Shown here: piece after piece, positions 17,511-60,665 of the stretch
Layout of the letters: every line of letters starts with the position of its first letter
Numbering within the stretch: position 1 is the first letter of the stretch
Virus record (IMG/VR): IMGVR_UViG_3300005518_000003
Coordinates: 1-64,000 of that record
Source of the DNA: a virus
Direction: 5' to 3' (one strand)
DNA length: 64,000 nucleotides
Program-made: the position numbers and the translations under genes
Notes under the pieces: generated by a model
What the model saw: the letters and a program-made list of their open reading frames with translations, nothing else
What the model was told of the DNA's origin: nothing
Databases searched by the model: none

Positions 17511-19247
17511 TTACTCGGCCGCTTCGTCGTTGCGACGGTGTCTCGACGTTCCGGGGAACCGGAGCGAGGAGTTGTCCTCTTCCACCACGAGTCCGAGACC
17601 GCGCGCCGCGCTGTCGAGAACCTGCGGATGGAATTGTCCGAGCGTCGCGAAGCTGCCGCGATGCTTGGCGATGAGCTGATCGGCGTACTTGCGCTGATCC
17701 GGTGTCGCATGTCCTGCCGCATGCGCAGCGAGCACTTCGCGATTCTTTCGAAGCGCGACGTAGGCTTCTCCGTGCGAGCGTAGGACGTCCGTTGCTCCCG
17801 AAACGTCGCCGAGTCCACGGACTCCCACCGGAGCGTACGCGGAAACCGGAGGGCTTTGTGGCGTCGTCGGAACCATGATGCCCGGAGGCATTTGTTCCGG
17901 CGGAACTTGTGGCTGACGCGAAATCGCCGGAGGCGGCACGAATCCGCCTGGCGGGGTGTACGGGCCTTGATTCACGACGGGCGGATATCCTCCGCCCGGT
18001 GGAATCGTCGGATGCGGACCGCCTTGTGGAAGTTGCATTTGCGGCATCACGCTCGGCCCGGTTGAAGGACCGGACGGAATCATGCTGCGACATCCGCAAG
18101 AACCGCCGAGGCCAGGGTACTGACCGCAGGTCGAGCACGGGGCTCCGGCGAGACCGACCGCCGTGCGCTGTCCGATTTCTCCCGAGAAAAGCTTCTTCCC
18201 GGTCGAGTCGGATGCGCTGTCCTTGAAGAGGTACGCCGCGAGATCGTCGACGGCTTTTCCGACGAGACGAACGGCTGCGCCGAATCCGAAGAACTGAAGC
18301 GCGCTGCGCCCCATCGGCGATCGAATGAACTGCGCGACGACGAGCGGTGTTCCGGCCACGGCGACGCCCGCACCAACGCGCGGAAGGAAGTCGTCCATGA
18401 GCGGAGCTTCGATGAAGCGCATCGCGAGCGCTTGACCTTTGTCGTCCTTGCGTTCTCGCATCGTCACGAGACGATCGATCACGTCGGCAGCGGTGTAACC
18501 GATGGCGCCCGTGACGAGGCCGACGACGAGCTCCCAGCCAGTGACCGGGTTCTCCATCGCTCCGCGACGGGAGTGACGACGGCGACGGAGACGCTCACCC
18601 GTGATGTGTCCGACGAGGCGCGTGCGGTAGCGCTTGCCGTGCGACTTGCCTCCGCGGCGACGTGTGAAACGTCCGCGACGGGTGCGACGCACCTGGCGCG
18701 GGAACTCGCGCGCACGCGCGCGACGACGACGACCACCTCGACGGCGACGGCGGCGGCGCGGAGCTTCGGCTGCACGCGCGTAGCGGCGGCGACGGCGGCG
18801 GCGCGGAGCTTCTCGAGAACGACGTGCGCGACCTCGACGACGGCGACGGCGGCGCGGAGCTTCCTCACGCGATTGACGACGACGACGACGACCACCCTTG
18901 CGACGTTTGCGGGCCATGTGCACGGTCTCCTTGGAATGAGAACGGCGTCTCGCCCGCACGCGAGATCGTTTTCTTCGCTTGAGTGAACCGCGACGGCGGC
19001 GCTTCGTCAAGCCCTCTTCTTTCGCATGACGACGGCGACGGCGTTTGCCGGCACGACGCTTTGCAGCTTTCCCGCCGAAACCAGCCTTGATCTGCGCAGG
19101 AGTCAGCCTGCGTCGTTTTCCTCTTCGCGCCATCTTTCTGCCTCGTTTTCGTGGGGTGTCTGCATGAAGGACCACCGCCCGCCTCGAAGCAGCCTGCTCT
19201 GGCTCGGAACGCGCTCGCGAGAGAATCTCTCGATAGTCGACGGGCAT
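17511..19247 (-). CDS. Protamine-like Arg-rich core protein fused to membrane and Pro-rich segments (alternative start 19133)
   Basis: ~190 aa of poly-Arg blocks with EAPRRRRRRR repeats, then ENPV, hydrophobic helices, a CxxC motif, a Pro-rich linker and GLG motifs. Confidence 0.75.
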   Translation of the reverse strand: MPVDYREILSRARSEPEQAASRRAVVLHADTPRKRGRKMARRGKRRRLTPAQIKAGFGGKAAKRRAGKRRRRRHAKEEGLTKRRRRGSLKRRKRSRVRARRRSHSKETVHMARKRRKGGRRRRRQSREEAPRRRRRRRGRARRSREAPRRRRRRRYARAAEAPRRRRRRRGGRRRRARAREFPRQVRRTRRGRFTRRRGGKSHGKRYRTRLVGHITGERLRRRRHSRRGAMENPVTGWELVVGLVTGAIGYTAADVIDRLVTMRERKDDKGQALAMRFIEAPLMDDFLPRVGAGVAVAGTPLVVAQFIRSPMGRSALQFFGFGAAVRLVGKAVDDLAAYLFKDSASDSTGKKLFSGEIGQRTAVGLAGAPCSTCGQYPGLGGSCGCRSMIPSGPSTGPSVMPQMQLPQGGPHPTIPPGGGYPPVVNQGPYTPPGGFVPPPAISRQPQVPPEQMPPGIMVPTTPQSPPVSAYAPVGVRGLGDVSGATDVLRSHGEAYVALRKNREVLAAHAAGHATPDQRKYADQLIAKHRGSFATLGQFHPQVLDSAARGLGLVVEEDNSSLRFPGTSRHRRNDEAAE

Positions 19248-19844: not shown

Positions 19845-20681
19845 TCACTTCGCTCGACGACTCGCCCACCAAGCTTTGATGTCGTCTTTGTACACAAAGC
19901 CGAGAACACCCGCGGTGACGACTGTTCCGCCAAGCATCCACCAACCCCACGGGAACTCCGGCCCGGCCTTTGGCGTAGTGCATCCGCCAGCCACGAACTT
20001 CTGCGCTTCGAGAAGATCGTCGCGCGCCTTCAAATCTTCCTTCGACCAGGGCGCGTTCGGATTCTGGATGTGATAGTCGACGATTTTGTTGTAGTCCGCA
20101 TGCAATCGAATGAGCTCGCGATCACATTCGATCTTCGAAAGAATGTCGTCGATGACGAGCGACGCGAAGTAGATCAAAGCGATGGCGATCGCTGTAACCG
20201 CAAGCATCTGCGCGATGACGGCAACGATCATCACGGGGATGAGCACCTCGATGTTTCCCGTCGAGTTGTTTTTCATCTGCGTGGCGTCAGCCGGCGTTGG
20301 CGTTTTGATTCCGCGTCGCTTCGCAATAATCTGAAGCGTACGAGCCAGCGTATCTGTCGGATTGTCCGAGCCGCCAGCGCTGATATTTTTGTCGTTCGCG
20401 AGCTTCGCGTTGATCGCACTCGAGACCATGAGCGTGATGAAGTCTTGCTTCGAAGGGTTGTCGTTCGCGATCCACTTTTTGGCGGTGGCTCTTGCATTCG
20501 CGGAGGCGAACGCCTGATCCCACGAGCGGCCCTGTACTTGTGCCCAAAACTGTTTGATGAGTACGTACGGATTGAGCGAAAACGCAGGAAGTTTGAGCGC
20601 TGCGGTGACGTCGTCGATGGGTGCGCCAAGGCCCACGATGCGAAGTGCTTTCTGAAAATCTTCGTAGCGTACGAGGGTCAT
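19845..20681 (-). CDS. Membrane protein (internal and C-terminal TM)
   Basis: GLG leader; long hydrophobic stretch; WGWWMLGGTVVTAGVLGFVY. Confidence 0.7.
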   Translation of the reverse strand: MTLVRYEDFQKALRIVGLGAPIDDVTAALKLPAFSLNPYVLIKQFWAQVQGRSWDQAFASANARATAKKWIANDNPSKQDFITLMVSSAINAKLANDKNISAGGSDNPTDTLARTLQIIAKRRGIKTPTPADATQMKNNSTGNIEVLIPVMIVAVIAQMLAVTAIAIALIYFASLVIDDILSKIECDRELIRLHADYNKIVDYHIQNPNAPWSKEDLKARDDLLEAQKFVAGGCTTPKAGPEFPWGWWMLGGTVVTAGVLGFVYKDDIKAWWASRRAK

Positions 20682-21565
20682 CGGCTTCTCACCTTTCGAA
20701 TGACGACGGCAGCGAGAGCCGACGCAGCGACGATACCACCGCCGACCACGGCCGCCTGCTTGTTCGTGAGCTTCGGAAGTGAGGGCAGATCGGGAAAGAA
20801 ATCGCCAAGCTCACCGAGACCACGAACGAGACCGCGAATCGGCTTCGCGAGCTGCGGTGCTGCGGCTTGGACGCCCTGACCGACGTTATACCAAACCTGT
20901 TCTTGCGGATCCGGACCGAGCACCATCTCGCTCGGAAGTTGATGGTACTGGCCGTCACTTCCAAGACCAAGCACCGGTAGTGCTCCGATTCCGACGAACT
21001 CGGCTTGAAGACCCGCGTACGCCGGATCCTTCCACGGGTTCATGCGTGTCTCACGCGACGCCTTCGCCTTTTCACCCGCCGTGAAGCGCGGCGTGGTCGC
21101 ATCGAGTGGAAACCATTTCCCATCTTCGAGTTTCACTTCGCAAATCACGTGCTGTTGATGCTCCGACCCGAAGAACTGGCGAACAATCTCAACTTCGAGT
21201 CCCGACGCCGCGCAAAGCGACGCGAGTGCCGTCACGAAGCCATCGCAATCCTCGATCGGAATGCACGCCAAGGCCCCTTCAACGCAGAGCGTGATCGGCG
21301 CGGCTTGGATCAACTCCGTGCCCGGTGGATCGTGCGTGTACCCAATGCTTCGTTTGCAATGGTTGAAGTGCGCGGTCGCTTTCTCTTTGTTCGTTCGCGG
21401 AAACATCGCTTGGCGAAGGATGTTGCCCGCGAAGCTGCGAAAAATTGGCATGGGAGCAGCCTCCCGAACCTTTTCGCAGATTTTGTGCAGCGACTTTTGG
21501 ATCCCTTCCTCGCCGTCCGGATACGACTCACGAAGGTACGGAACGCCAGCGGAGGAGGTGTTCAT
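20678..21565 (-). CDS. Transglutaminase-like (papain-fold) cysteine protease with C-terminal TM
   Basis: Y..DP.G.E, EDCDG (Cys), QHVICEV (His), WFPLDAT (Asp) triad order. Confidence 0.85.
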   Translation of the reverse strand: MNTSSAGVPYLRESYPDGEEGIQKSLHKICEKVREAAPMPIFRSFAGNILRQAMFPRTNKEKATAHFNHCKRSIGYTHDPPGTELIQAAPITLCVEGALACIPIEDCDGFVTALASLCAASGLEVEIVRQFFGSEHQQHVICEVKLEDGKWFPLDATTPRFTAGEKAKASRETRMNPWKDPAYAGLQAEFVGIGALPVLGLGSDGQYHQLPSEMVLGPDPQEQVWYNVGQGVQAAAPQLAKPIRGLVRGLGELGDFFPDLPSLPKLTNKQAAVVGGGIVAASALAAVVIRKVRSR

Positions 21566-21568
21566 CGA

Positions 21569-21961
21569 TCAGTCCTGAATGCACATATACGGGAAGTTCG
21601 GCATTCCCGTAGGAACGGAGTGATATCCCGGAGGACACGGATTCGCTTTCGGGTTGGAAAGATTCTGCGCGAGCTGACTCGCAACATTTGCAAGATTGAC
21701 GGGTTGCAATTGCGGCGGCGGCTGCGGTGGTGGCGTCGTATCGACCGGCTTGACGTTTCCAGGCGGACCGGTTGTCGTCGGCGTCGATCCAGGAGGAAGC
21801 GGTTGCTTTCCGCTCGCGATGTCCTCGGTCGTCGATTTCTTCGTAAGGTAGTTCGTGAGGAGAACGGCGACGGTCGTTGTTATCGCGGCTGTTGCCCCGG
21901 CAATAAGGAGCTGCATCCCCGTGCTCTCGACCGGATTTCTTCGCGCTCTTCGCATCACCAC
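21569..21961 (-). CDS. Small membrane protein
   Basis: RRARRNPV, then TM, then Pro-rich tail. Confidence 0.65.
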   Translation of the reverse strand: MVMRRARRNPVESTGMQLLIAGATAAITTTVAVLLTNYLTKKSTTEDIASGKQPLPPGSTPTTTGPPGNVKPVDTTPPPQPPPQLQPVNLANVASQLAQNLSNPKANPCPPGYHSVPTGMPNFPYMCIQD

Positions 21962-22533
21962 ACCGGAAGCGGGTTGGCTGGGAGCAGAAACCCAATCTGC
22001 GAAGCGATGGCTTGAACGCTCTTATAGAGCGCGTTGATCAACTCCGAAGAGAGCTGGAGCCCTTTCATCGCGTTCACCCATGCGGCAACGTCGTTCAAGA
22101 GCTGTTGGTTATTCTGCTGGTTCGGCTGACCGTACGCTTGCGGATTCGGCGCGGGCGGTGGTGTTCCGCCTCCTCCGCCTCCGCCTGGTGGAAGAGTTTT
22201 TCCACCGCCACCCATTTGCGCTGAACTTGGACGCAGCGCGAAGTAGAGGCCCGTCCCTAGGATGGCTGCACCGCCGAGACCACCGAGGATGTAGAGCGTC
22301 GATTTTTTCATGACCGGATTGCTGCGTGCACTTCTTCGGCGTGCGCGTCGACGTTTTACGTAGCGACGAGAATAATCGCGTCGATCAAGGCTTGCAGATC
22401 CACGCGAACCGTGAGGAAGCCATCGCAGAGCTTCTCGTTTGTTCCTCGCTTGGACGTAAAAGTACGACGACCTGCTTTCCCCAGGATAGCGGTAGGTCAC
22501 CTTGTACGATTTGAAATCCCACATCGCGGGCAT
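21955..22533 (-). CDS. Basic membrane protein
   Basis: Arg-rich segment, RSNPV, TM LYILGGLGGAAILGTGLYFAL. Confidence 0.65.
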   Translation of the reverse strand: MPAMWDFKSYKVTYRYPGESRSSYFYVQARNKREALRWLPHGSRGSASLDRRDYSRRYVKRRRARRRSARSNPVMKKSTLYILGGLGGAAILGTGLYFALRPSSAQMGGGGKTLPPGGGGGGGTPPPAPNPQAYGQPNQQNNQQLLNDVAAWVNAMKGLQLSSELINALYKSVQAIASQIGFLLPANPLPVW

Positions 22534-22597
22534 CCCTCTTTCACGCACGACGCGCCCGCACGAGCGCCTGCATGTCGTCAGCATACGACGAGGTGGG

Positions 22598-27427: not shown

Positions 27428-29377
27428 CTACCGGGAACGCACCTTGTGAAGCTTTTTGTCGGCGAACGAATAGAACTCGCCTTCGCCCATCACCACGTGG
27501 TCGATGAACGCGATTCCAGAGGCTTTGCAAGCATTTTTCATTGCTTTGGTCAGGTCGGCATCGGCATCCGAAAAATCCGCTCCGCCGCTCGGATGGTTGT
27601 GCAGGATCGCAAGCCCTTTCGCGCCGCGATCGATGGCCGGCTTGAGGACGTCAGCAGGATCGACGGCAACGCGATCGCGCTGACCTACGTGAACGATGGC
27701 GACCCCGCGGAGGTCGGAATGGATATCGAGCAGGATCGCGCAGAGGTGCTCCTTGTCCTGCTTCGAAGCCCACGGATGCATCATGTTGTAGATGTCGCGT
27801 GAATTCTTGATCGGACCGATTTGTTGCGCGACCTCGCGAATCTCTCGAAAGTCATCCGCGTTGCGCTCGACCTTCACGAACGGAATTCCATCCGTCACCT
27901 CAACGGGATTCTCACCCACGTGTTTTGCATGTGGCCAGTGCTGTCGCGCGCTTGCTCGTACTTGATCTTCAGATTCACCACGAATGATGTTGATCGAGTA
28001 CCCGTGACGATCACGCGCAACCGCTTCCCACTCTTGGCGGACTTCGTCGTACGCGATCTCTACGGTCACGACCTTTCGCTCGCGTCCCTCGGCCGCCCCG
28101 CCACATCCGTGCTCGCAGCCGCATTCGTTCGCTTCACGCGAGATGCCACCAGGAACACCTCGTTGCGGATCCAACTTAGACAAAGCCTCGGCATTGCTCG
28201 GGAGCTTCCTCACCCGCTTACCAGTGTTTGGCCAGTGATAGAGCCCCTTCTTGTAAAAGAGCTCGCGCTCGGTGTAGCTGCCGTCATCCCGCGGCGTGTA
28301 CGTCCGAACGACCCATTTCTTTTTGTCGTCCCAATACTTCACGAAGTGCGTCGCTGAGAACATTCCACGATGAGCTTCATGGCGAAGCGCATCGTCGATG
28401 TTGTTGAAGTCGCGCGCTTCACGTGGCCCGCTCTCTGGAGGAAGTAGTGGAGGAGTCTCCGGTCCCGAGTGGAGAATGAGATGCTCCGATTTCATCTTGC
28501 CTTTAGAGCCGTCGCGCCAGAGAACGGTGATCTTTTCGCCTTCGACGGAGATCACGACGCCGGGATTGAGTTTCTTTGCAAGCCTTGGAAGAACGCCAGG
28601 CGCAAGCTGCACGTCGTCACCGCGTTGGAAATCGCGCGCCTGGACTGGGTTCTCGCGGAGCAACCGATCGACGCCCGACTTCGCCTGTCGCAACGCCTCA
28701 CCACGTGTGGTCGCACCCCAATGACCTCCACGAACGATGGCCGACCACCACGTGGTTCCGTCGTCCATGAGATATTTTTCGAGTCGAATGTTCTCGCCGT
28801 GGTAGTCGACCGTCTCGCGTTGTTGGATTCGATCGCGCGCCTCGACGGGGTTCTCGCGAACAAACGAGACGCTCGGACGCACCGCAGGCTGCGAATTCGC
28901 AAAAGCTTCTGCTTCGCCTTTCGTCTTGAACGGGCCGTGATACTCGCTGCTCCGATCACTTGGTCTGCGGCCGTATGCGTACCAGACCGTGCTCCCGTCT
29001 TTCGGACGCTCTGATGGATGCATCTGATCACTCGAAACGATTCGCCAAGGAATCGGTTGCCTCCATGCCGGCTGAGGACCGCGACGAGGATTCTCTCGCG
29101 CACCCGGACGTCGGATCAGTCCAATGTGCACCGCGTAGTCGTACGCGCTCTCGTGCATCTTTCGTGGATTGAGGAAGCCGTCTTGAATCGCTTCGCCGAC
29201 TTGATCATCCCACCACTCAATGATGGTCGCGTCGTTCTTCGCGTTGATCAGCTCGACGTGTGCTCGGTCACGCTCCTCCCAGGTCGAGAGCCGCGTGTCA
29301 CTGAGAGACAATTCGGGCACGGAATGACGTCCACGGCGACGGGCTTCTTCGGCGGCGGCGGGATTCATTCGAGGCAT
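27428..29377 (-). CDS. Modular polyprotein-like protein with C-terminal RadC/JAB domain
   Basis: KEHL..ILLD, HNHPSG..FSDAD..LT..M...GI.FIDHVV JAB motif; upstream modules separated by ENP motifs. Confidence 0.85.
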   Translation of the reverse strand: MPRMNPAAAEEARRRGRHSVPELSLSDTRLSTWEERDRAHVELINAKNDATIIEWWDDQVGEAIQDGFLNPRKMHESAYDYAVHIGLIRRPGARENPRRGPQPAWRQPIPWRIVSSDQMHPSERPKDGSTVWYAYGRRPSDRSSEYHGPFKTKGEAEAFANSQPAVRPSVSFVRENPVEARDRIQQRETVDYHGENIRLEKYLMDDGTTWWSAIVRGGHWGATTRGEALRQAKSGVDRLLRENPVQARDFQRGDDVQLAPGVLPRLAKKLNPGVVISVEGEKITVLWRDGSKGKMKSEHLILHSGPETPPLLPPESGPREARDFNNIDDALRHEAHRGMFSATHFVKYWDDKKKWVVRTYTPRDDGSYTERELFYKKGLYHWPNTGKRVRKLPSNAEALSKLDPQRGVPGGISREANECGCEHGCGGAAEGRERKVVTVEIAYDEVRQEWEAVARDRHGYSINIIRGESEDQVRASARQHWPHAKHVGENPVEVTDGIPFVKVERNADDFREIREVAQQIGPIKNSRDIYNMMHPWASKQDKEHLCAILLDIHSDLRGVAIVHVGQRDRVAVDPADVLKPAIDRGAKGLAILHNHPSGGADFSDADADLTKAMKNACKASGIAFIDHVVMGEGEFYSFADKKLHKVRSR

Positions 29378-29392
29378 CTTACACCGAGTGTA

Positions 29393-29575
29393 CTACCCCT
29401 GCTTCTGCGGCGTCGGATCGACCTTGTGGGCGATGAGAGTGATCCCTTGACCCCTGAAATAAAGCTTGGCGCTCGGTGATTTGAGCGTGTCGTCGAGCTT
29501 TTTCGTGAGCATCGCAGCTTGAGCGTCATCCTTCGCATCGAAGACCGCTTCCAGTTTCATCACATACCTCGGCAT
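29393..29575 (-). CDS. Small hypothetical protein
   Basis: GAGGAGG RBS; coupled start. Confidence 0.5.
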   Translation of the reverse strand: MPRYVMKLEAVFDAKDDAQAAMLTKKLDDTLKSPSAKLYFRGQGITLIAHKVDPTPQKQG

Positions 29576-30072
29576 CACTTCCTCCTCTTTCTCCTCAGTT
29601 TTTTCACACCTTGTGGAGAACCGTGTCGCGGTGGTCCGCCAGCACATTCGCGCACCAATCGATGCGCTTCGTCGATCACGAATGGGTGTTTCCTCCAACC
29701 GAATTTCGTGTGGTAGAGGAATTTCATCATCGCGTTGTAGGCAATGGCCACGAGGTGACGCCGCGGGTCGCCCTCAAAGTGATCGTACGGCACGCCGGTC
29801 ACGTACTCGACGTAGTGCTTGAGCACGTGGTTGAGCGGATCCGCATCCTCAGTGAGCTCGCTCAACGAATACTGGAAGCAGTCTTCGTACTTCTCGTCAG
29901 CGTACGCGCCGATCTCCGCCATCATCAACAAAAACTCGGGATTGATGGCGTCGTAGCGGTAGCGAACCTTGTTACGTGTTGCTTTGACTAGCTTTCCCCC
30001 CATCCGAACGGGATCGAGCATGTCGCGAACGGTTTCTTCCACCTGCGGACTGAATTTTTTCTTTCGTTTCAT
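29575..30072 (-). CDS. dATP/dGTP diphosphohydrolase-like domain (DUF5664)
   Basis: RYDAINPEFL..MAEIGAYADEKY...NHVLKH...HLVAIAYNAM. Confidence 0.75.
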   Translation of the reverse strand: MKRKKKFSPQVEETVRDMLDPVRMGGKLVKATRNKVRYRYDAINPEFLLMMAEIGAYADEKYEDCFQYSLSELTEDADPLNHVLKHYVEYVTGVPYDHFEGDPRRHLVAIAYNAMMKFLYHTKFGWRKHPFVIDEAHRLVRECAGGPPRHGSPQGVKKLRRKRRK

Positions 30073-30772: not shown

Positions 30773-31196
30773 CGCTTTTCCTTTCTCGAAGTATCTGAAC
30801 GAGCCTCGTGCACCATCGCGTCTGACCTTCTTTGGTCATCCTCCCGAAGAATTCGTTCGCTTCTTCGTCGGTGAGATCTTCGACTTCTAGATCGACGATC
30901 GATTCGCCGCGTTTGATTCGAACGAAGATGCCGGAGCCAGTCTCCGGCGAGCGCTCGCGGACGCCAGGTCTGTCGTTGTGGAGATCCCCTTCCTTGGTGG
31001 GCCCAGCAAGTGCCCATATTCCGCACTTGTCACATTGAAGCCTACGAACCCAGGGTGACCACGCCTGGTATCGATAGGTACCGCCACATTGTTCGGCTTC
31101 GTGCGTCGGGTACTTCTCACGAAGCGGGCAGCCGCGGAAGTGCCGCGTCGGATCGCGATTCATGATCTCGGCGCAGTGACACTCTTGCTCAACCAT
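30747..31196 (-). CDS. Cys-rich hypothetical protein
   Basis: ORF coupled to neighbours. Confidence 0.45.
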   Translation of the reverse strand: MVEQECHCAEIMNRDPTRHFRGCPLREKYPTHEAEQCGGTYRYQAWSPWVRRLQCDKCGIWALAGPTKEGDLHNDRPGVRERSPETGSGIFVRIKRGESIVDLEVEDLTDEEANEFFGRMTKEGQTRWCTRLVQILRERKSDGDQKQPR

Positions 31197-31941
31197 AATC
31201 CGCTCCCGCGTTCATGCGCACGAGCGCGCGTTCCGCCATCGCTTCGATCTCTTTCGGGATCGCCTTACGAGGTTCGGCGCTCACCCACTTCTCTCCGTGC
31301 GGGAAGCATACGTACGCGTGTTCGGTGTCTTCACGAAACTCGCGCTCGATGATCGTGACCGTTCCTGACTCGGGCTTCGATTCGTGGAACGCATCCGCGG
31401 TGAGGCTGTACGAATCGCCTTCAACGAAGGTGACTTCCTGAAGCTTCTCGACGAGTACGGATTCGGATTCTCCAACCGCGCATCCGCCAGGACCGCATAC
31501 GATCTTTTGCCTGGAGTGCGTAGGCGTCTTGAATCCGAAGTTGCTCACCTCGTAGAGCACGTCGGTCATCCGCCCCGAGATGACCGTCGAACGGAAGTGC
31601 CACGGATGCGAATGAATCGTCGAGACACTCTCTGTACGGAAGCGATCGTCCCAAACGTGAAGACGCATCGATTTCGACAAGTAGAGTCGGAACATTCCGA
31701 ATCCCTGGAGCGTCCACGTGTCGAACGCGAGCGGTGCCATGAGAATTCGGCGAACCGTCTCGCGAAGCATTCGCTGCTTTGGTTGGTCTATCGTATTCCA
31801 AAGCTCCCACGCTTTCGGGCGCTCCATTCGTCCTTTTCCATCCGAGAACGCACCGCAGTTGGGACACCACGCGGGAATCAGTCGAGTGTCTCGCGCTTCG
31901 ACGATCGTCACCGGGTTCCGACAAAAATTACAGACCGCCAT
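31189..31941 (-). CDS. Zn-ribbon plus cupin (DSBH) protein
   Basis: CNFC..CPNC; RLHVW..IHSHPWHF.S.VISG...FH. Confidence 0.75.
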   Translation of the reverse strand: MAVCNFCRNPVTIVEARDTRLIPAWCPNCGAFSDGKGRMERPKAWELWNTIDQPKQRMLRETVRRILMAPLAFDTWTLQGFGMFRLYLSKSMRLHVWDDRFRTESVSTIHSHPWHFRSTVISGRMTDVLYEVSNFGFKTPTHSRQKIVCGPGGCAVGESESVLVEKLQEVTFVEGDSYSLTADAFHESKPESGTVTIIEREFREDTEHAYVCFPHGEKWVSAEPRKAIPKEIEAMAERALVRMNAGADYG

Positions 31942-31942
31942 C

Positions 31943-32842
31943 TCAACCCTCCGCCTTCATCCAAGGAACGGGAAATAGATTCGGCCACCGCTCGACGCAA
32001 ATGCGCCGGAGCTTCTTCGCAAAGCGCTGCATCTCGAGATCAGCGGCTTCGCCCGCGCGCTCTTTGACGAGCTTCGCGATGGCGGCGGGGTTGGTTGTCC
32101 AGATGAAGCTCGTCTCCGCCTGATGCGGTAGGAAGCTCGACGCCGCTTCGTAGATGCGTTTCTTGTCCATGCTCGTCGGCGGCTTTCCGTACCGCGCCGC
32201 AAAAGAGTCGACTTCCTCTTGAACCGCGCTGAGATAAAAGTCGTACGAAGTCTGCATCGCATGAACGAAGCGTTCCCGCATCGGGTGGCCAAAGTCGTCC
32301 ATCGGCAGGGTTTCACGCGCCTGCAAATAGCGTGGCGGCATGATGAAAAACCCGTAGTGGTGCGTGAACCGCGTGCTCTCTTGTGACGGCGCCCCCTCTT
32401 CGCTGCGATCGGCGCCGACGTAGTTTCGGATCAACTCGTGGCTCACACGTCGCGAGATGCCAGCGAAGAAGAAGCTCATCTTCGCGTGGTACAAAATCGA
32501 CGCATGTGGGGGATCCATCTCCTGCGTGTGCGCGATGTACTCGGCGTTCGACTTGCGACCGGCCTTGAGTCCGAACGAGTCGTAGCACTTTCGACCGGCC
32601 AGCTCGACGAGCAGCTCGTTGTCAGAAACTTTGTCGGCATGTGGAAAGAGCGAGAGCGTCCGTCGAGGATCCTTCGACACACCGCGCACCGACCAATCGA
32701 TGCTGTCACCGTCCGGTAAACACTCCGGTCGATGATCGCGAACCCAATCGACCATGTTGTTGATGCCCTCATGCGACAAGCACATCTCGGCGATGACCTC
32801 GATCGTCGGATCACCTGTCAGAATCGTGACTTCCTTTTTCAT
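31943..32842 (-). CDS. thyX: ThyX-like flavin-dependent thymidylate synthase, deviant motifs
   Basis: ELAGRKCY.SF, HASILYH, GISRRVSHELIR, SQESTRF, LP..AET, ER...AD.EM. Confidence 0.85.
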   Translation of the reverse strand: MKKEVTILTGDPTIEVIAEMCLSHEGINNMVDWVRDHRPECLPDGDSIDWSVRGVSKDPRRTLSLFPHADKVSDNELLVELAGRKCYDSFGLKAGRKSNAEYIAHTQEMDPPHASILYHAKMSFFFAGISRRVSHELIRNYVGADRSEEGAPSQESTRFTHHYGFFIMPPRYLQARETLPMDDFGHPMRERFVHAMQTSYDFYLSAVQEEVDSFAARYGKPPTSMDKKRIYEAASSFLPHQAETSFIWTTNPAAIAKLVKERAGEAADLEMQRFAKKLRRICVERWPNLFPVPWMKAEG

Positions 32843-32850
32843 CTGGTCAC

Positions 32851-33060
32851 CTAGTTTTTCGGCTTTCGCTTTTGATCCCAACACGCGAGCGCTTCTTCGA
32901 TTGCTTCGACGAGTGTTCCGCCTTCACCTGGAAACACGCCAAGCTCGGGGTCGTCGGCTGCGTATAGCCACACGACGATGCATGCGTTTTGCGTACTGAA
33001 GATCTGTAAGCTCAGATCGCGCTCGCGCAGAGCTGCTTCGAGCTCTTCGATCGTCTTCAT
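32851..33060 (-). CDS. Small hypothetical protein
   Basis: 4-nt overlap with the ATPase stop. Confidence 0.5.
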   Translation of the reverse strand: MKTIEELEAALRERDLSLQIFSTQNACIVVWLYAADDPELGVFPGEGGTLVEAIEEALACWDQKRKPKN

Positions 33061-34838
33061 GCGTCCTCCGCAAGCATCTCTGCCATCTTCACGCGCTCGC
33101 GAGACGTCTCTTCGGCGAGCTCGCGTCGTGTGAGCCTCTGGATGTACGCATTGCGCGAAGACGTTGCCCAGCGCTCTTCCTCCAGCGCTTCCCCAATCTC
33201 TTCGCGCGTCATGTCCTTTGGATACGCGTCAGCGAGAACGCGAAGACACTTTGCTTCGGGTCCTGGAAGCTTGCGAAGCCAGTGTTCGAGCAGCGCTACG
33301 CCGGTCGGAAGCTCTTCGTAGTCATCGCCAAGCCATTCGACGCCCTCCAGAGTGATGCGGTGGCGATCTCCGACCTCCTCAAAGATGCCGGCATTCCGAC
33401 CGCGCTGGAAATACGCGTTGCGTGTGCTTCCCTTCGCCCCGGTGATTTGTGTGATCTGCGAGCGCGTCACTCCGCTTTCTCCGAACTGCGCGACCGCAGC
33501 CACGAACGACCGCGGAACTTTCACTTCTCCTTCAACCTTCGACGCATCCCCATTCGACTGAGGTCTCGACGCAACCCTCTTCTTTTCTTTTGGTACGACG
33601 ACGATCGCCGGAACAACGATCTTTCCGACAGCGAGATGTTGCATCTGCTGGCGAAGTCGCTTGAGCTCATCGAGCGCTGACTGCGCCATACCCTCGGCTC
33701 GGAGCGTTTTCTCTTTCGCATCTTCGGTTGCTTTGCGCGACGAACCCAAAGCTTCAACCAACGCGTCGACCTGCTTCTCGAGTTTCTTTTCTTGTCGCTT
33801 CGTAAGAACCGGTACCTCGATACGCTTTGGGATACGCGCGGGAGATGGATCGGGTTGAAGCTTCTTGAATTTTCCCGCTGCCTCGAGCTCCTTTTTGAGT
33901 CGCATGACTTCTGCCTTCAATGCTTTCGGATCGTTCGCTTTCGCTTGTTCTACGGTCGCCGCCATCTGCGCAGAGAGCGCACCAAGATCGACGTCAGCAA
34001 GTGTCTTGGGAGGCTTGACCTTCTTCCCATCCGGCGTCCGACTGGAGTCGAACGTCTTTCGTTCACGGAATGAAACGCATTCGAGCATCCCGTTCATGAG
34101 ACCTGGCGCCCAAAACCAACCCGTGCCGCGTTCGAGCGACGAAAGCGTTCCTAGCACTTGCTTTTGCTCTTCTTTGGTCCCGTTGTGTTCGATCCAGTCC
34201 CCGAATGCGTTGATGTCCTGCGGTCCCGTGAGGCGAAACGCGATCAAGATCTCGATTTGTGTGAGCACGTCTTTCGCGATGCGTGCAGGACGCTGCGAAA
34301 TGAGCGTCACACCGATGCCGCGCGTACGACCACGCAGAACGAAATCGTTGATCGCCCCAACGAGCGGAAGCATGTCCGCAGAATCGACGCGCTGCGGGAC
34401 GAAGAGATCGCACTCATCGATGACGATGTGAAGAGGCTCTCGTTGCTTGTTCTTGAGGAGGTAGAGCTTATCGGCGAAGTCGCGAACGAACCGGCGCATC
34501 GCGCTCTTCGAGAAGTCGGAGAGATCGAGCACACACGAGAGACGATTTTCGACGACGTACTCGGCGAGGACGGTACCTCCACGCTCCTCGAGTGGCATAT
34601 CCGCATGGAGACCCCCGAAGATCGGAATCGGATAGCCGCCTTCCTTTTTTCCATTGCTCCCCGCACGAAGCCCCCAGGCTCCGCCTGTCGGATCGATGAC
34701 AATGGTCTGCACCTTTGCGTCGAGTAGCTCCTCGACGAGGAGCATCCCGGTGTGGGTCTTACCCGAACCGCGCTTACCGATGATTCCGATGGTCTCGGTT
34801 GCGATGTTCGGGATCTTGAGCTTGGGGGCGAGACGCAC
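33057..34838 (-). CDS. HerA/FtsK-superfamily ATPase (DUF87-like) with coiled coil and probable wHTH C-terminus
   Basis: GKRGSGKT Walker A, VIDPTG, IVIDECD Walker B, RGRTRGIG, ISQRPA. Confidence 0.9.
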   Translation of the reverse strand: MRLAPKLKIPNIATETIGIIGKRGSGKTHTGMLLVEELLDAKVQTIVIDPTGGAWGLRAGSNGKKEGGYPIPIFGGLHADMPLEERGGTVLAEYVVENRLSCVLDLSDFSKSAMRRFVRDFADKLYLLKNKQREPLHIVIDECDLFVPQRVDSADMLPLVGAINDFVLRGRTRGIGVTLISQRPARIAKDVLTQIEILIAFRLTGPQDINAFGDWIEHNGTKEEQKQVLGTLSSLERGTGWFWAPGLMNGMLECVSFRERKTFDSSRTPDGKKVKPPKTLADVDLGALSAQMAATVEQAKANDPKALKAEVMRLKKELEAAGKFKKLQPDPSPARIPKRIEVPVLTKRQEKKLEKQVDALVEALGSSRKATEDAKEKTLRAEGMAQSALDELKRLRQQMQHLAVGKIVVPAIVVVPKEKKRVASRPQSNGDASKVEGEVKVPRSFVAAVAQFGESGVTRSQITQITGAKGSTRNAYFQRGRNAGIFEEVGDRHRITLEGVEWLGDDYEELPTGVALLEHWLRKLPGPEAKCLRVLADAYPKDMTREEIGEALEEERWATSSRNAYIQRLTRRELAEETSRERVKMAEMLAEDA

Positions 34839-57065: not shown

Positions 57066-57280
57066 CGAATCCCTGCTGCTCGCTGAAGCTCTGGAATTTG
57101 ATCCGTAGGGATAAGGAATCCGCCCTGGGCTGCCGTAGCCCAACCAGCCTTCCAGAGGGATTCATAGATGCTCCAACCTTCGTCGCTCGGGACGAGAATG
57201 CGACCACGAGCGAGAAGAAGCTTCACGAGTGCGCGAAGTTGCGGAGGTCGGAGCTGTTCGAGAGATTTTTTCTTTTTCAT
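57062..57280 (-). CDS. Small hypothetical protein
   Basis: 4-nt overlaps on both sides. Confidence 0.5.
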   Translation of the reverse strand: MKKKKSLEQLRPPQLRALVKLLLARGRILVPSDEGWSIYESLWKAGWATAAQGGFLIPTDQIPELQRAAGIR

Positions 57281-58077
57281 CCGAACCTCACGACGGCTTT
57301 GATCGGCGTACCCTGAAATTGAATCGTGCGCATGCGCCCGCCGGGCGGAAGCTGGCGCAAACGGATGTACTGGTCAGTGACGTCGACCTTTCCGCTTTTG
57401 AAACCGTGCTTCTTCGCCCATGTTTGCGCAGTCTCCGGTGTGAAACTCGAACGCGGAAAGAGGAGCGTCTGCACGCGACCGCCGCCGGCTCCAGGAGCTT
57501 TCGATGCTGGACGTTTTCCAGGAAGACGCTTGACCGGATTTTCTTCAGCGGCTGCAAGACGTCCAACGACAGGGATTTGCCGAAAGAGATCAGGGCGGAA
57601 GTAGTAGACCGCCCCGCCCGTGGCGGCAGCGATGAGTGCGACCGTGACGACTGGATGCTCTTTCACCCAAGCAGCAGCTCCTCCCGAACCGATCGCACCC
57701 TCGTACTCATTTTGGTATTGGAGAACTTTTTGGACGTAGTTTTGCGTTTCCGCGTACGGAGGAATGCCTCCAGCTTGAGCGACCGCACCTGGACCTGCGT
57801 TGTACGCAGCCACCGCCAAAGGTGTGGAGCCAAACCTCTGCAAGTTCTGTTTCATGAGGCGCGCAGCGCCGTCGATCGCTTGCGCCGGATCCATGGGGTT
57901 CACCCCGAGGTTTGCTGCCACTTCAGGCATGATTTGCATGAGACCCCGTGCGCCCGCTGGGCTCATCGCGTTCGGATTGAATCCGGATTCCGCCCTCGCC
58001 ATCGCAGCGAGCAAGGCAGGGTCGACGTGGTATTTCTTACCGGCGGCGACGAAGAGCGAAGCGTACGGAATGCTCAT
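57277..58077 (-). CDS. Lytic transglycosylase (SLT) with TM anchor and extra C-terminal domain
   Basis: AESGFNPNA.SPAGARGLMQ.MP, AAYNAGPG, PPY.ETQNYV; TM VVTVALIAAATGGAVYYF. Confidence 0.95.
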   Translation of the reverse strand: MSIPYASLFVAAGKKYHVDPALLAAMARAESGFNPNAMSPAGARGLMQIMPEVAANLGVNPMDPAQAIDGAARLMKQNLQRFGSTPLAVAAYNAGPGAVAQAGGIPPYAETQNYVQKVLQYQNEYEGAIGSGGAAAWVKEHPVVTVALIAAATGGAVYYFRPDLFRQIPVVGRLAAAEENPVKRLPGKRPASKAPGAGGGRVQTLLFPRSSFTPETAQTWAKKHGFKSGKVDVTDQYIRLRQLPPGGRMRTIQFQGTPIKAVVRFG

Positions 58078-58718
58078 CGGCGGAAGTATCCTTTGCGCCA
58101 GAGGACCGCAGCGGTCGCGATCGCTCCGACAGCGCCAACTGCAACGAATATCTTCGTCGTGCTGCTCCATTGGCTGCTAATGGCTTTCGCAACAGCGCTT
58201 GCCCACGTTTGAGCTCCAGCACCGTAGAGATGTACGCCATCGCCTTGGCCGGCGTTCACCGCTGCTTGCGTCGCCGGCCTGGAATCGAAGACGGCAGAAC
58301 CGGCTGCCTTGTAGAACGCCGCGACGGCAGCATTCGTGTAGTACGGCACGTTCCCACGCGTCGCGGGCGGACCAATCCAGAACGTTTGCTTCGCGTTGTA
58401 GCTCGCGATCGCCTTTTTGATGTCGGCGACGGCTTGCGTGACGGAGCGACCGCCCGCGGCGGCATTCGCTGCATCGTTCGTCCCGAGCGAGACGATAAGC
58501 AGATCAGGTGAGTGCGGGAGCTTCGACTGGTCGACGCACCACGAGTTGTCAGGTCGACAAACGGTCTGTCTCGTGGCCCACATCAGGCCGTTCGAGGATC
58601 CAACGCCCGCGACGGTGACGATGTAACCCTGCGCCTGGAGAAGCTTCGCGAGATCCGGCCCGAATGCACCCACCGGCTCGACATGGCTGTCGCCAATAAT
58701 GAGCGCGGTTTTCGCCAT
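58074..58718 (-). CDS. SGNH/GDSL esterase with C-terminal TM
   Basis: IGDSH, GVGS, SLGTND and DGVH blocks. Confidence 0.9.
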   Translation of the reverse strand: MAKTALIIGDSHVEPVGAFGPDLAKLLQAQGYIVTVAGVGSSNGLMWATRQTVCRPDNSWCVDQSKLPHSPDLLIVSLGTNDAANAAAGGRSVTQAVADIKKAIASYNAKQTFWIGPPATRGNVPYYTNAAVAAFYKAAGSAVFDSRPATQAAVNAGQGDGVHLYGAGAQTWASAVAKAISSQWSSTTKIFVAVGAVGAIATAAVLWRKGYFRR

Positions 58719-60438: not shown

Positions 60439-60665
60439 CGCCGGACGACGACCATTCCGAGACCGATGAGATCGTAGATGCCGCCAACCACCTTAGTCAG
60501 AGCTTTGCCTTTGACAATCGCGTACGTTCCCGATCCGAGAAGAAGAGCGCCGCCAAGTTGCGGAGCTCCCAGCACGGCGGAAGCGATACCAACGAGACCA
60601 CCGATCGTGAGGACGGAATCGACGTTCTCGGGCGGATTCCGTTTTGCTTTTCTTCGACGTCGCAT
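60435..60665 (-). CDS. Small hydrophobic membrane protein
   Basis: MRRRRKAKRNP, then Gly-rich TMs. Confidence 0.6.
   Translation of the reverse strand: MRRRRKAKRNPPENVDSVLTIGGLVGIASAVLGAPQLGGALLLGSGTYAIVKGKALTKVVGGIYDLIGLGMVVVRR

What the first reader, a model, noticed from the sequence alone, without database searches (positions are those of the whole stretch)
27428..29377. RadC/JAB-tipped polyprotein punctuated by ENP motifs that recur in other virion proteins
Seen: ARENPR (29087-29095), VRENPVEARD (28847-28855), LRENPVQARD (28646-28654) and VGENPVE (27905-27913), plus PREARD and SREANE, cut the 649-aa protein into ~65-95-aa unrelated modules. One module is SH3/KOW-like (FQRGDDVQL..GVV..ITVLW.DG) and the last is an intact JAB domain. 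The same NP mark sits at domain junctions in the Arg-rich protein (AMENPV), the transglycosylase (AEENPV), 21569 (RRNPV), 21955 (RSNPV) and 60435 (KRNP), usually next to a basic tract or TM. Known: RadC-JAB occurs in polyvalent proteins of mobile elements, and T4 gp21 and phiKZ gp175 cleave head-packaged proteins after Glu. Inference: a second processing or packaging code delivering a string of small effector/anti-defence domains inside the virion.
Basis: partly seen in the sequence, partly recalled or inferred. Interest (0 to 1): 0.82.

Follow-up and report, generated by a model that had tools for sequence, protein, structure and literature searches.

The report
Asn-Pro-seamed modular RadC viral protein
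One 649-residue protein of an uncultured 78.5-kb bacterial virus is a chain of seven unrelated small domains ending in a RadC/JAB enzyme. The domains are joined by a conserved Arg-x-Asn-Pro "seam" that recurs in hundreds of related modular proteins and looks like a cut-here or dock-here mark, but no cutting has been shown.

Summary
ORF 27428-29377(-) encodes 649 aa with four ENP tripeptides (0.10 expected; 0 of 100,000 shuffles reach four). It also has two E-A seams and an intact C-terminal RadC/JAB domain.

AlphaFold2 places all six marks in low-confidence coil between separately folded modules. Homologues gain, lose and permute modules at these marks.

The mark is family-wide. In 243 relatives that share the N-terminal module, NP is by far the most over-represented dipeptide (389 vs 136 expected). 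The consensus is hydrophobic-R-[R/K/E]-N-P, the commonest spacing is 60-80 aa, and RadC-less proteins carry up to eight marks.

The mark is positionally conserved in a second, syntenic 77.9-kb virus, including at the boundary between basic tract and membrane helix of virion-module proteins.

This is a polyvalent protein (a known class) with a conserved module delimiter that I did not find described. Cleavage, packaging and the agent that reads the mark remain unshown.

This scan has already noted Asn-Pro seams in at least five other uncultured viruses, and an E-A-seamed RadC protein in a sixth.

Novelty: new variant of a known kind. Interest 0.6.

The parts
27428..29377 (-). Whole gene: 649-aa polyvalent 'beads-on-a-string' protein (P0001)
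   Evidence: ORF list and translation. AF2 model: mean pLDDT 71, pTM 0.39, confident domains separated by low-confidence coil.
29333..29368 (-). N-terminal seam-like leader M-N-P-AAA-E-E-A-R-R-R (residues 4-15)
   Evidence: Sequence. Predicted helix 6-15 capped by Asn5-Pro6. E-A-R-R is a second enriched linker word in the family (32 vs 3.2; contexts).
29102..29320 (-). Module M1 (residues ~20-92): widespread beta3-alpha2 domain of unknown function
   Evidence: 454 representative clusters hit, nearly all through this module. Folded alone: pLDDT 92.9, pTM 0.81. No Pfam hit, no PDB sequence hit, best structural Z 3.9. Stand-alone or embedded in 137 long proteins. Present on 5 plasmids and in none of 50,697 phage records.
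29084..29101 (-). Seam 1: A-R-E-N-P-R (residues 93-98)
   Evidence: coil; the 10-residue block 91-100 averages pLDDT 64, and the low-pLDDT segment 99-108 follows directly. Homology to relatives ends at residues 91-111.
28883..29050 (-). Module M2 (residues ~110-165)
   Evidence: AF2 strands 112-115, 132-137, 144-150 and helix 153-162, pLDDT 70-87. Absent from P0003, P0004 and P0005.
28832..28861 (-). Seam 2: V-R-E-N-P-V-E-A-R-D (residues 173-182)
   Evidence: low-pLDDT segment 166-176. Shares 25 of 27 nt and 7 of 8 codons with seam 3 (P=0.005 from codon usage alone).
28661..28831 (-). Module M3 (residues ~183-239): four strands plus a helix
   Evidence: pLDDT about 90. Found in another order in P0003 and P0152. 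Only weak fold matches, Z about 5.
28631..28660 (-). Seam 3: L-R-E-N-P-V-Q-A-R-D (residues 240-249)
   Evidence: helix 225-242 ends at the mark; 242-272 is low pLDDT. Identical seam in P0003.
28475..28630 (-). Module M4 (residues ~250-301): the proposed SH3/KOW-like module, not confirmed
   Evidence: Low pLDDT 31-60. No Pfam hit. Present only in P0001. The insertion is flanked by a duplicated A-R-D-F.
28409..28429 (-). Seam 4: G-P-R-E-A-R-D (residues 317-323), an E-A-type seam without NP
   Evidence: segment 300-328 below pLDDT 50. Homology blocks of 11 relatives start at residues 307-323.
28175..28408 (-). Module M5 (residues ~324-401): second most widely shared module
   Evidence: Shared with P0004-7, P0011-13, P0024, P0042, P0049 and the G001 protein. 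pLDDT 57-89.
28100..28141 (-). Seam 5 with Cys cluster: S-R-E-A-N-E-C-G-C-E-H-G-C-G (residues 413-426)
   Evidence: E418, C419 and C421 are invariant in the alignment. Segment 402-439 is below pLDDT 50.
27923..28087 (-). Module M6 (residues ~431-485)
   Evidence: Sits between M5 and RadC here, but between M1 and M3 in P0003, flanked there by R-E-N-P-V and R-E-S-P-V. pLDDT 41-61.
27896..27919 (-). Seam 6: V-G-E-N-P-V-E-V (residues 487-494), directly before the RadC unit
   Evidence: E489, N490, P491 and V492 are invariant in 6 homologues. The equivalent is ENPA in P0007 and P0011, DNPI in P0024 and ENPI in virus G001. Segment 481-505 is below pLDDT 50. Uses different codons from seams 2 and 3.
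27431..27895 (-). RadC/JAB unit (residues 495-649) with intact JAMM motif
   Evidence: Pfam PF04002 E 2e-28. NCBIfam RadC models match only their C-terminal halves and score below cut-off. Foldseek 2qlc TM 0.84-0.87. VIA Z 19.6.
18543..18554 (-). E-N-P-V between the ~230-aa protamine-like Arg tract and the hydrophobic domain of the 578-aa protein (17511-19247)
   Evidence: The orthologous position in virus G001 reads F-D-N-P-M, in a protein pair 32% identical overall.
21929..21937 (-). N-P-V after an N-terminal M-R-R-A-R-R and before a membrane helix (gene 21569-21961)
   Evidence: G001 has three small proteins built the same way.
22312..22323 (-). S-N-P-V after an Arg tract and before a membrane helix (gene 21955-22584)
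   Evidence: Matches the G001 2150-2491 region.
57532..57543 (-). E-N-P-V after the membrane helix of the SLT transglycosylase (gene 57277-58170)
   Evidence: (PF01464, E 1e-27).
60633..60641 (-). R-N-P after M-R-R-R-R-K-A-K and before a membrane helix (gene 60435-60665)
20678..21565 (-). Transglutaminase-like (papain-fold) protein: candidate trans-acting reader or protease. This role is inference only.
   Evidence: Pfam PF01841 E 1.7e-6. Candidate catalytic residues C107, H136/H139 and D155 are invariant between the G000 and G001 orthologues, which are 43% identical. No activity or binding shown.

Best explanation
P0001 is a polyvalent "cargo" polyprotein of an uncultured virus. The virus is probably not a typical tailed phage: its packaging enzyme is a HerA-type ATPase and it has many membrane proteins.

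SHOWN:
- The protein has seven independently folding, mutually unrelated cassettes: M1 to M6 plus a catalytically intact RadC/JAB domain.
- The cassettes are strung on disordered spacers, and each spacer carries a short conserved linear motif. Family-wide this is hydrophobic-R-[R/K/E]-N-P-[V/I/A/R]. In this subfamily it is R-E-N-P-V-(E/Q)-A-R-D or x-R-E-A-R.
- The motif is kept at the protein level, marks where cassettes are gained, lost and permuted, and sits where stand-alone versions of a cassette have their own start or end.
- Two of the seams are also near-identical at the DNA level.

INFERRED:
- Recombination within seam-coding DNA swaps cassettes in frame.
- The seam is a recognition motif read by a trans-acting factor. 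Most likely it is a cut site that frees the small domains after the precursor has been made, packaged or delivered as one unit.
- The same mark trims or sorts Arg-rich and membrane-anchored virion-module proteins.
- Candidate chemistries are cleavage by a virus-encoded cysteine peptidase (the transglutaminase-like protein at 20678-21565) or Asn-Pro self-cleavage.

My odds: about 0.8 that it is a cassette polyprotein with a selected delimiter, about 0.6 that the delimiter is read by a partner, and about 0.4 that it is actually cut.
For: - Motif excess in the protein: 4 ENP vs 0.10 expected.
- All six marks lie in low-pLDDT coil, 9-13 residues after the last helix (directly after it for seam 3) and 4-18 before the next element. 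Low pTM (0.39) fits independent domains.
- Homologues: ENPV before RadC is invariant; M4 is inserted with a duplicated A-R-D-F; M6 is permuted between seams; M2 and M3 are present or absent.
- Family-wide, in 243 proteins with M1 and RadC masked: NP is the top dipeptide, 389 vs 135.6 (z 21.8; the next best has z 5.7). RRNP, RKNP and RENP each occur 21-24 times against about 0.8-0.9 expected.
- The logo shows R at -2 in 39% of sites, and the spacing mode is 60-80 aa.
- After collapsing homologous flanks, 138 independent contexts remain against 33.6 expected occurrences.
- Homology break-points are enriched 1.8-fold within 6 aa of a mark and exceed all 200 randomisations.
- Marks sit at distances from M1 comparable to the protein termini of stand-alone M1 proteins.
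- Seams 2 and 3 share 25 of 27 nt (P=0.005 by codon usage), while seams 1 and 6 use other codons, which points to selection on the peptide.
- In the syntenic virus G001 the mark is conserved before RadC, at the protamine/membrane boundary and in small Arg-NP-membrane-helix proteins.
- The residue after NP shifts from V in G000 (11 V, 3 I) to I in G001 (2 V, 8 I), Fisher p=0.011. This hints at a common reader.
- Glu in the protamine tract prefers [A/S]-x-E (7 of 13, p=0.001).
- The Cys-His-Asp residues of the transglutaminase-like protein are conserved.
- Published proposal that polyvalent proteins are delivered with the DNA and may be processed: PMC5512222.
Against: - No experiment or dataset shows cleavage, packaging or binding.
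- X-Pro bonds resist most endopeptidases.
- Known Asn-Pro self-cleavage (FlhB/YscU N|PTH, reovirus mu1) needs a folded catalytic context (PMC3207474), whereas these marks are in disordered linkers.
- Not every junction has a mark; for example, P0006 and P0010 lack one after M1.
- The NPV/NPI contrast rests on two genomes and includes non-independent sites.
- Asn-Pro is an intrinsically good turn and helix-cap former, so part of the excess could be structural.
- No recognised maturation protease family was found.
- The protein's presence in virions is inferred only from gene position.
Confidence: 0.45

Rival explanations
1. Uncut structural seam. Asn-Pro, with the E-A-R-R/D that follows, is a turn or helix-capping signal that ends one module and starts the next. 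It insulates folding and gives a hinge. The protein works as one tethered array, and conservation of the motif plus recombination in its coding DNA explain the shuffling without any reader.
For: - Asn5-Pro6 caps predicted helix 6-15, and helix 225-242 ends exactly at seam 3.
- N-P-x-E matches the classical capping-box pattern (own knowledge).
- In membrane proteins the NP lies 3-7 residues before the hydrophobic helix.
- Seams 2 and 3 are DNA-level repeats.
- Some junctions lack a mark.
Against: - Only 1 of 5 NP marks starts a predicted helix and only 1 of 5 ends one. The others sit in the middle of coil.
- Simple capping does not explain the preference for Arg at -2 and a hydrophobic residue at -3.
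- Marks also occur at extreme N-termini, where nothing needs insulating, at the same elevated density as inside the proteins.
Confidence: 0.3
2. Docking or packaging motif. The basic-x-Asn-Pro seam is a multivalent short linear motif that binds packaged DNA (in the manner of SPKK or AT-hooks) or an inner virion component. This would load the polyprotein and the Arg-rich membrane proteins into the particle without any cleavage.
For: - Family-wide, seams are embedded in Arg/Lys-rich stretches: basic residues reach 0.52-0.67 at positions -2 and -1.
- The same mark follows the protamine-like tract and the Arg-rich N-termini of small membrane proteins in two viruses.
- Up to 8 copies occur per protein.
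Against: - P0001's own seams (R-E-N-P-V-E-A-R-D) carry a net charge near zero, which suits DNA binding poorly.
- No partner has been identified.
- The motif is also found on plasmid-borne and stand-alone proteins.
Confidence: 0.15
3. One reading: a T4 gp21 or phiKZ gp175-type head protease cuts after Glu (x-R-E|N-P, x-x-E|A-R).
For: - In this subfamily Glu precedes nearly every seam. P0003 keeps R-E-S-P-V, so Glu is more conserved than Asn there.
- E-A-R-R is enriched family-wide (32 vs 3.2; 56 E-A-R-[R/D/E/K] sites in 41 proteins).
- The [A/S]-x-E bias in the protamine tract has p=0.001.
- T4 gp21 mostly cuts Glu-Ala bonds (own knowledge).
Against: - No Pfam S77, S78 or ClpP match at E<=1 in the complete genome. 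This is inconclusive for divergent enzymes.
- Family-wide, the residue before N-P is R, K or E in equal shares (59/53/54).
- The virus has a HerA-type ATPase, and no portal, HK97 capsid or tail hit was found among the roughly 38 proteins I scanned with PHROGs and Pfam. A Caudoviricetes-type prohead protease is therefore not expected.
Confidence: 0.12
4. Self-processing by the C-terminal RadC/JAB metallopeptidase-like domain, which would cut the seams in cis.
For: - The JAMM motif is intact.
- The fold is related to JAMM deubiquitinases and Cap3, Z 7-9.
- An invariant seam lies directly upstream of RadC.
- RadC-bearing relatives have the highest seam density: 0.345 per 100 aa against 0.201 in long RadC-less relatives.
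Against: - RadC-less relatives carry up to 8 seams (P0187, P0227).
- Iyer et al. argue that RadC lacks the ubiquitin-tail groove and more likely acts on nucleic acids (PMC5512222).
- No peptidase activity of RadC is known.
Confidence: 0.07
5. Chance or compositional artefact.
For: None beyond the general abundance of Asn-Pro in turns.
Against: 0 of 100,000 shuffles reach the observed count. The dipeptide z-score is 21.8, with 138 independent contexts. The mark is positionally conserved in an orthologue that is 32% identical.
Confidence: 0.01

Closest known systems
Polyvalent proteins of phages and conjugative elements, RadC-bearing subset (Iyer, Burroughs, Anand, de Souza, Aravind 2017, PMC5512222)
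   Same: Many unrelated domains in one polypeptide of a mobile element. Architectures vary rapidly between relatives. RadC/JAB is one of the domains. Occurs in viruses and plasmids. The authors propose co-delivery with the DNA and possible proteolytic release of domains.
   Different: That paper does not use the word 'linker' at all, and I found no conserved inter-domain delimiter in the passages I read. Apart from RadC, none of this protein's modules has a Pfam family. The hallmark module M1 has no Pfam or PDB relative.
Head-maturation processing of internal proteins by T4 gp21 (L/I-x-E|) and phiKZ gp175 (S/A/G-x-E|) (own knowledge)
   Same: A short motif ending in Glu lies in unstructured leaders and linkers of particle-internal proteins. 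This subfamily has x-R-E|N and x-x-E|A, and the protamine tract has [A/S]-x-E.
   Different: No such protease was detected. Family-wide the invariant residues are Asn-Pro, not Glu. The virus lacks recognisable tailed-phage head genes.
Asparagine peptide lyases cutting Asn|Pro: FlhB/YscU N|PTH (family N6) and reovirus mu1 (family N7) (PMC3207474)
   Same: The Asn-Pro bond is the scissile bond. It is used by a virus capsid protein for maturation. It needs no separate protease.
   Different: Those sites lie in a folded catalytic context and occur once per protein. Here the marks are multiple and sit in disordered linkers. No NPTH occurs in 243 proteins.
Adenovirus protease (adenain) trimming Arg-rich core proteins pVII and mu and membrane-lytic pVI at a shared short motif (own knowledge)
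   Same: One motif would be shared by protamine-like DNA-condensing proteins and other particle-internal proteins. A papain-fold cysteine peptidase candidate is encoded in the virion module.
   Different: The motif differs (adenain uses (M/I/L)-x-G-x|G). The transglutaminase-like protein is not homologous to adenain as far as tested. No activity is shown.
2A / CHYSEL 'ribosome-skipping' peptides D-[V/I]-E-x-N-P-G|P of eukaryotic viruses (own knowledge)
   Same: An E-x-N-P or E-N-P core lies at the joints of a viral polyprotein, and the downstream product would begin with Pro.
   Different: The G-P that defines 2A is missing: NPGP occurs only twice in 243 proteins. 2A is not known to work on bacterial ribosomes.
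Cellular RadC/YicR (PDB 2qlc)
   Same: Same JAB fold and metal-site motif (Z 19.6, 28% identity).
   Different: The cellular protein's N-terminal half is replaced by six unrelated modules. NCBIfam RadC models match only through their C-terminal halves and score below cut-off.

Membership tests
RadC-like JAB domain (PF04002) | Profile match above the curated cut-off | tested here: met
   99 bits against a cut-off of 22.1, residues 523-642 covering 120 of 121 profile positions.
RadC-like JAB domain (PF04002) | JAMM metal-site motif E...H-x-H-x7-S-x2-D | tested here: met
   E543, H593, H595, S603 and D606 are present and invariant in 6 homologues.
RadC-like JAB domain (PF04002) | JAB/MPN fold | tested here: met
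   2qlc: Z 19.6, rmsd 1.8, 123 residues aligned. Foldseek TM 0.84-0.87.
Full-length cellular RadC/YicR (NCBIfam NF000642 / TIGR00608) | Whole-protein match including the N-terminal half | tested here: not met
   94.8 bits against a cut-off of 180; only profile positions 85-210 match.
Polyvalent proteins (Iyer et al. 2017) | Several unrelated domains in one polypeptide of a virus or plasmid | tested here: met
   Seven modules with no mutual similarity, in a complete viral record with terminal repeats.
Polyvalent proteins (Iyer et al. 2017) | Domain architecture varies among close relatives | tested here: met
   P0003-P0007, P0011, P0024, P0152 and the syntenic G001 protein each carry a different module set or order.
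Polyvalent proteins (Iyer et al. 2017) | Carries recognised conflict or effector domains | tested here: inconclusive
   Only RadC is recognisable. The other modules have no Pfam, PHROG or NCBIfam hit. Upstream genes include a Lar-like restriction-alleviation domain and a MazZ-like dATP/dGTP diphosphohydrolase domain.
Polyvalent proteins (Iyer et al. 2017) | Packaged in the particle and delivered with the DNA | not testable with these tools
   The only evidence is gene position, next to the virion module and syntenic in G001.
Glu-specific prohead-protease substrates (T4 gp21 / phiKZ gp175 type) | Cognate protease gene in the genome | tested here: inconclusive
   PF03420 (S77), PF04586 (S78) and PF00574 (ClpP) give no match at E<=1. 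Divergent assemblin-fold enzymes could be missed.
Glu-specific prohead-protease substrates (T4 gp21 / phiKZ gp175 type) | Glu invariant at the position before the cut | tested here: not met
   Met within the closest subfamily. Family-wide, the residue before N-P is R 59, K 53, E 54.
Asparagine peptide lyases N6/N7 | Asn-Pro scissile bond | tested here: met
   Asn-Pro is the invariant core of the mark.
Asparagine peptide lyases N6/N7 | Site embedded in a folded catalytic domain (N-P-T-H loop, or the mu1 fold) | tested here: not met
   The marks lie in low-pLDDT coil. No NPTH occurs in the family.
Asparagine peptide lyases N6/N7 | Self-cleavage | not testable with these tools
   Needs protein chemistry.
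2A/CHYSEL peptides | D-[V/I]-E-x-N-P-G-P | tested here: not met
   After N-P come V, I, A, R or S. NPGP occurs twice in 243 proteins and once in the genome.

The most novel reading that the evidence does not exclude
The seams are genuine cut sites. On this reading, a lineage of uncultured bacterial viruses and plasmids makes effector polyproteins of up to nine small domains. These are separated at Arg-x-Asn|Pro (and x-x-Glu|Ala-Arg) seams, either by Asn-Pro self-cleavage in a disordered context or by a dedicated virus-encoded cysteine peptidase. The same code would mature the protamine-like DNA-condensing protein and the Arg-tailed inner-membrane proteins, giving an adenovirus-like one-motif maturation system in a prokaryotic virus.
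Probability: 0.35. Interest if true: 0.85.

Novelty: new variant of a known kind. Interest (0 to 1): 0.6.

Why it matters
Polyvalent proteins are thought to be the first viral weapons to enter a cell, but how a string of unrelated small domains is built, exchanged and deployed is unknown.

A conserved, family-wide delimiter gives a concrete handle on this:
- It predicts domain boundaries in hundreds of proteins that have no family annotation.
- It explains in-frame cassette swapping.
- If it is cut, it would be a new processing code, possibly a new use of Asn-Pro chemistry, linking effector delivery to particle maturation.

The work also defines a large uncharacterised domain family, M1. It has at least 454 sequence clusters, a confident fold model and no Pfam or PDB relative. 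M1 flags such proteins in viruses and plasmids.

Tried and rejected
- The search for related loci found nothing with P0001 alone or with the capsid candidate. The one metagenome scan returned only contigs of 1.8-2.4 kb. The test of whether the residue after NP differs by genome therefore rests on two genomes.
- A search for short stand-alone versions of residues 96-520 found none. The word index has limited sensitivity.
- The ESM Atlas gave no usable hit for M1 or M5.
- M1 has no structural relative: best Z 3.9 in the PDB, and one BFVD hit at E 8e-4 without a name.
- M3 gave only Z about 5 (an anti-Cas complex chain, profilin-like and START-like chains). This is below the tool's noise level, so I do not use it.
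- SH3/KOW for M4: no Pfam hit and a poor model, so it cannot be decided.
- Helix-cap explanation: checked against the model, it fits 1 of 5 marks as an N-cap and 1 of 5 as a C-cap.
- 2A-like and FlhB-like motifs are absent.
- N-terminal enrichment of the mark: neither enriched nor depleted relative to the already high internal density.
- Complex prediction with the transglutaminase-like core and residues 160-200 of P0001 returned no verdict. This is not evidence either way.
- Phage database: there is no near relative at the DNA level, and protein matches cover the RadC part only.


Full report
**The observation**

The ORF 27428-29377 on the minus strand encodes 649 residues. ENP lies at residues 95, 175, 242 and 489, exactly at the coordinates given. 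R-E-A-R-D is at 319 and R-E-A-N at 414.

From composition, 0.10 ENP are expected, and none of 100,000 shuffles reached four ENP or three ENPV. The seven intervals are unrelated to each other; the only inter-module similarities are the linker words themselves.

The C-terminus is a RadC/JAB domain:
- Pfam PF04002, E 2e-28, residues 523-642.
- An intact E...H-x-H-x7-S-x2-D motif.
- The RadC fold: 2qlc at Z 19.6, JAMM deubiquitinases and Cap3 at Z 7-9.

**Genomic setting**

The window is bases 1-64000 of a 78,563-bp IMG/VR virus record with direct terminal repeats, rated complete. My own gene calls give 109 genes.

The gene sits between two blocks on the same strand.
- Upstream: a HerA/DUF87-type ATPase (labelled terminase by PHROGs, but with Pfam DUF87 and HerA_C hits), ThyX, a Lar-like restriction-alleviation domain and a MazZ-like dATP/dGTP diphosphohydrolase domain.
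- Downstream: a block of proteins with no family hits. It includes a 391-aa protein with weak virion-protein hits, a protamine-like 578-aa protein, a transglutaminase-like protein and many small membrane proteins.

A second complete virus, G001 (77,874 bp, terminal repeats), is syntenic at 25-75% protein identity. It has a RadC protein at the same place.

**Structure**

AlphaFold2 with 70 homologues gave mean pLDDT 71 and pTM 0.39.
- Confident domains: about 20-92 (pLDDT about 97), 110-165, 183-242 (about 90), 327-400 and 506-649 (about 95).
- Segments below pLDDT 50: 99-108, 166-176, 242-272, 300-328, 402-439 and 481-505.

Five of the six marks fall inside one of these segments, and the first (residues 95-97) lies in coil directly before one. 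Only one NP starts a predicted helix (Asn5-Pro6) and only one ends a helix (seam 3), so simple helix capping is not a general explanation.

**Homologues and shuffling**

Word-index and exhaustive HMMER searches found close relatives P0003-P0007 and 454 representative clusters. Nearly all of the latter match only module M1.

The alignment of the close relatives shows the following.
- E-N-P-V directly before the RadC unit is invariant. It reads ENPA, DNPI or ENPI in more distant relatives and in G001.
- The seam before M5 is conserved.
- M4 exists only in P0001, inserted after A-R-D-F, with A-R-D-F duplicated at its far end.
- M6 lies between M5 and RadC in P0001 but between M1 and M3 in P0003, where R-E-N-P-V and R-E-S-P-V flank it.
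- Local alignments to 20 relatives end at about residues 91-111, 182-188, 249, 307-323, 396-418 and 489.

Seams 2 and 3 share 25 of 27 nt and 7 of 8 codons (P=0.005 from codon usage alone). Seams 1 and 6 use other codons. So there is both DNA-level copying and peptide-level selection.

G001's RadC protein lacks M1 altogether.

**The mark is family-wide**

I analysed 243 M1-containing proteins with M1 and RadC masked.
- NP is the most over-represented dipeptide: 389 vs 135.6 expected, z 21.8, against z 5.7 for the next.
- RNP, NPR, KNP and ENP head the tripeptides.
- RRNP, RKNP and RENP each occur 21-24 times against about 0.8-0.9 expected.
- The logo is hydrophobic(-3), R(-2, 39%), R/K/E(-1), N, P, then R/V/S. 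Successive marks are most often 60-80 residues apart.
- After collapsing homologous flanks, 138 independent contexts remain against 33.6 expected occurrences.
- RadC-less proteins such as P0187 and P0227 carry eight marks each. When split at Asn|Pro they fall into pieces of about 55-130 residues, and some pieces recur with identical boundaries in different proteins.
- Homology break-points lie within 6 residues of a mark 1.8 times more often than random, above all 200 randomisations.
- Around M1, the nearest marks sit at about the distances at which stand-alone M1 proteins start and end.
- A second seam word, E-A-R-R, is also enriched (32 vs 3.2) and lies in Gly/Pro-rich spacers ahead of Arg-rich leaders.

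**Other proteins of the virus**

Excluding P0001, NPV occurs 8 times against 2.6 expected and ENPV twice against 0.18.

The fifth, in the transglycosylase, follows the membrane helix.

In G001 the equivalent sites are kept:
- D-N-P-M at the protamine/membrane boundary, in a protein pair 32% identical.
- Three small proteins that begin with 6-8 basic residues, then N-P, then a membrane helix.

G000 prefers NPV (11 V, 3 I) and G001 prefers NPI (2 V, 8 I), Fisher p=0.011. This is suggestive of a shared reader, but it rests on two genomes and on partly dependent sites.

In the protamine tract, 7 of 13 Glu have Ala or Ser two residues before them (p=0.001).

**What reads the mark?**
- No Pfam S77, S78 or ClpP protease is found.
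- The transglutaminase-like protein keeps candidate Cys, His and Asp residues in both viruses. That makes it a candidate, no more.
- RadC is not required in cis.
- Published Asn|Pro self-cleavage (FlhB/YscU, reovirus mu1) occurs in folded contexts (PMC3207474).

**Comparison with known systems**

The protein meets the tested criteria for polyvalent proteins, a class that includes RadC-bearing members (PMC5512222). That paper does not use the word "linker", and my literature searches found no report of an Asn-Pro delimiter.

M1 has no Pfam, PDB-sequence or fold relative despite a confident model. It occurs on five plasmids (Deinococcus, Rhizobium, Hydrogenophaga, Piscinibacter) and in none of 50,697 deposited phage records.

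**Earlier notes of this scan**

Asn-Pro seams between swappable modules have been reported before on at least five other uncultured viruses. An E-A-seamed RadC polyprotein was reported in a tailless virus. Those notes led me to test the E-A-R-R word and the [A/S]-x-E bias.

**Verdict**

The thing is a polyvalent cassette protein with a conserved, selected delimiter that doubles as the cassette-exchange point. Whether the delimiter is cut, bound or merely structural is open. I rate cutting at about 0.4.

Noticed in passing
window 33057-34838 (-): PHROGs labels this 593-aa protein a terminase large subunit, but it has a Walker A motif and Pfam DUF87/HerA_C hits, so it is an FtsK/HerA-type ATPase. 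It is 61-66% identical in virus G001. No portal, HK97 capsid, tape-measure or tail hit was found among the roughly 38 proteins I scanned. Together with the many membrane proteins, this suggests a large non-tailed, membrane-containing virus.
   Followed up: partly
window 17511-19247 (-): A 578-aa protein has a first ~230 residues that are a protamine-like run of Arg blocks, followed by E-N-P-V, hydrophobic helices, a Cys pair and a Pro-rich tail. The orthologue in G001 is 640 aa. Glu in the basic tract prefers [A/S]-x-E (7 of 13, p=0.001).
   Followed up: partly
window 20678-21565 (-); L010 4734-6353: A transglutaminase-like (papain-fold) protein in the virion module has conserved candidate Cys-His-Asp residues. 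The longer G001 orthologue has an N-P before a membrane helix and ends in G-E-A-R-R-R-R-R.
   Followed up: partly
window 29575-30072, 31189-31941, 31943-32884 (-): The genes just upstream of the polyprotein carry a dATP/dGTP diphosphohydrolase N-terminal domain (MazZ-like, a family linked to modified-base DNA), a Lar-like restriction-alleviation zinc ribbon, and ThyX. This may be a counter-defence and nucleotide-modification neighbourhood. I did not search for PurZ.
   Followed up: no
window 29102-29320 (-); proteins P0010-P0244: Module M1 (conserved core T-W-x-E-R-D-R ... E-W-W-D ... D-G-F-L-x-P) is a large uncharacterised domain family. It has at least 454 clusters at 50% identity, occurs stand-alone (66-100 aa) or in proteins up to 1313 aa, gives a confident beta3-alpha2 model, and has no Pfam or PDB relative.
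   Followed up: yes
L019 (Deinococcus wulumuqiensis plasmid pDrdI) 5989-6201: A stand-alone 70-aa M1 gene sits in a run of small hypothetical genes next to a PcfJ-domain gene on a 669-kb plasmid. The same record has two more M1 matches.
   Followed up: no
window 16008-17390 (-): A 460-aa protein has the highest codon-usage score and GC3 (0.86) in the genome and is 43% identical in G001. It is the likely major capsid protein, but it has no Pfam, PHROG or NCBIfam hit, and its fold was not determined.
   Followed up: no
proteins P0187, P0227, P0161, P0176: These RadC-less metagenomic proteins have 4-8 R-x-N-P marks. Split at Asn|Pro, several pieces recur between proteins with exactly the same boundaries; one example is a 58-residue Cys-containing piece shared by P0187 and P0227.
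   Followed up: partly
window 28100-28129 (-): A conserved E-C-G-C-x-H-G-C cluster sits between M5 and the last seam; E418, C419 and C421 are invariant in homologues. It may be a small metal site. It lies in a low-confidence part of the model.
   Followed up: no
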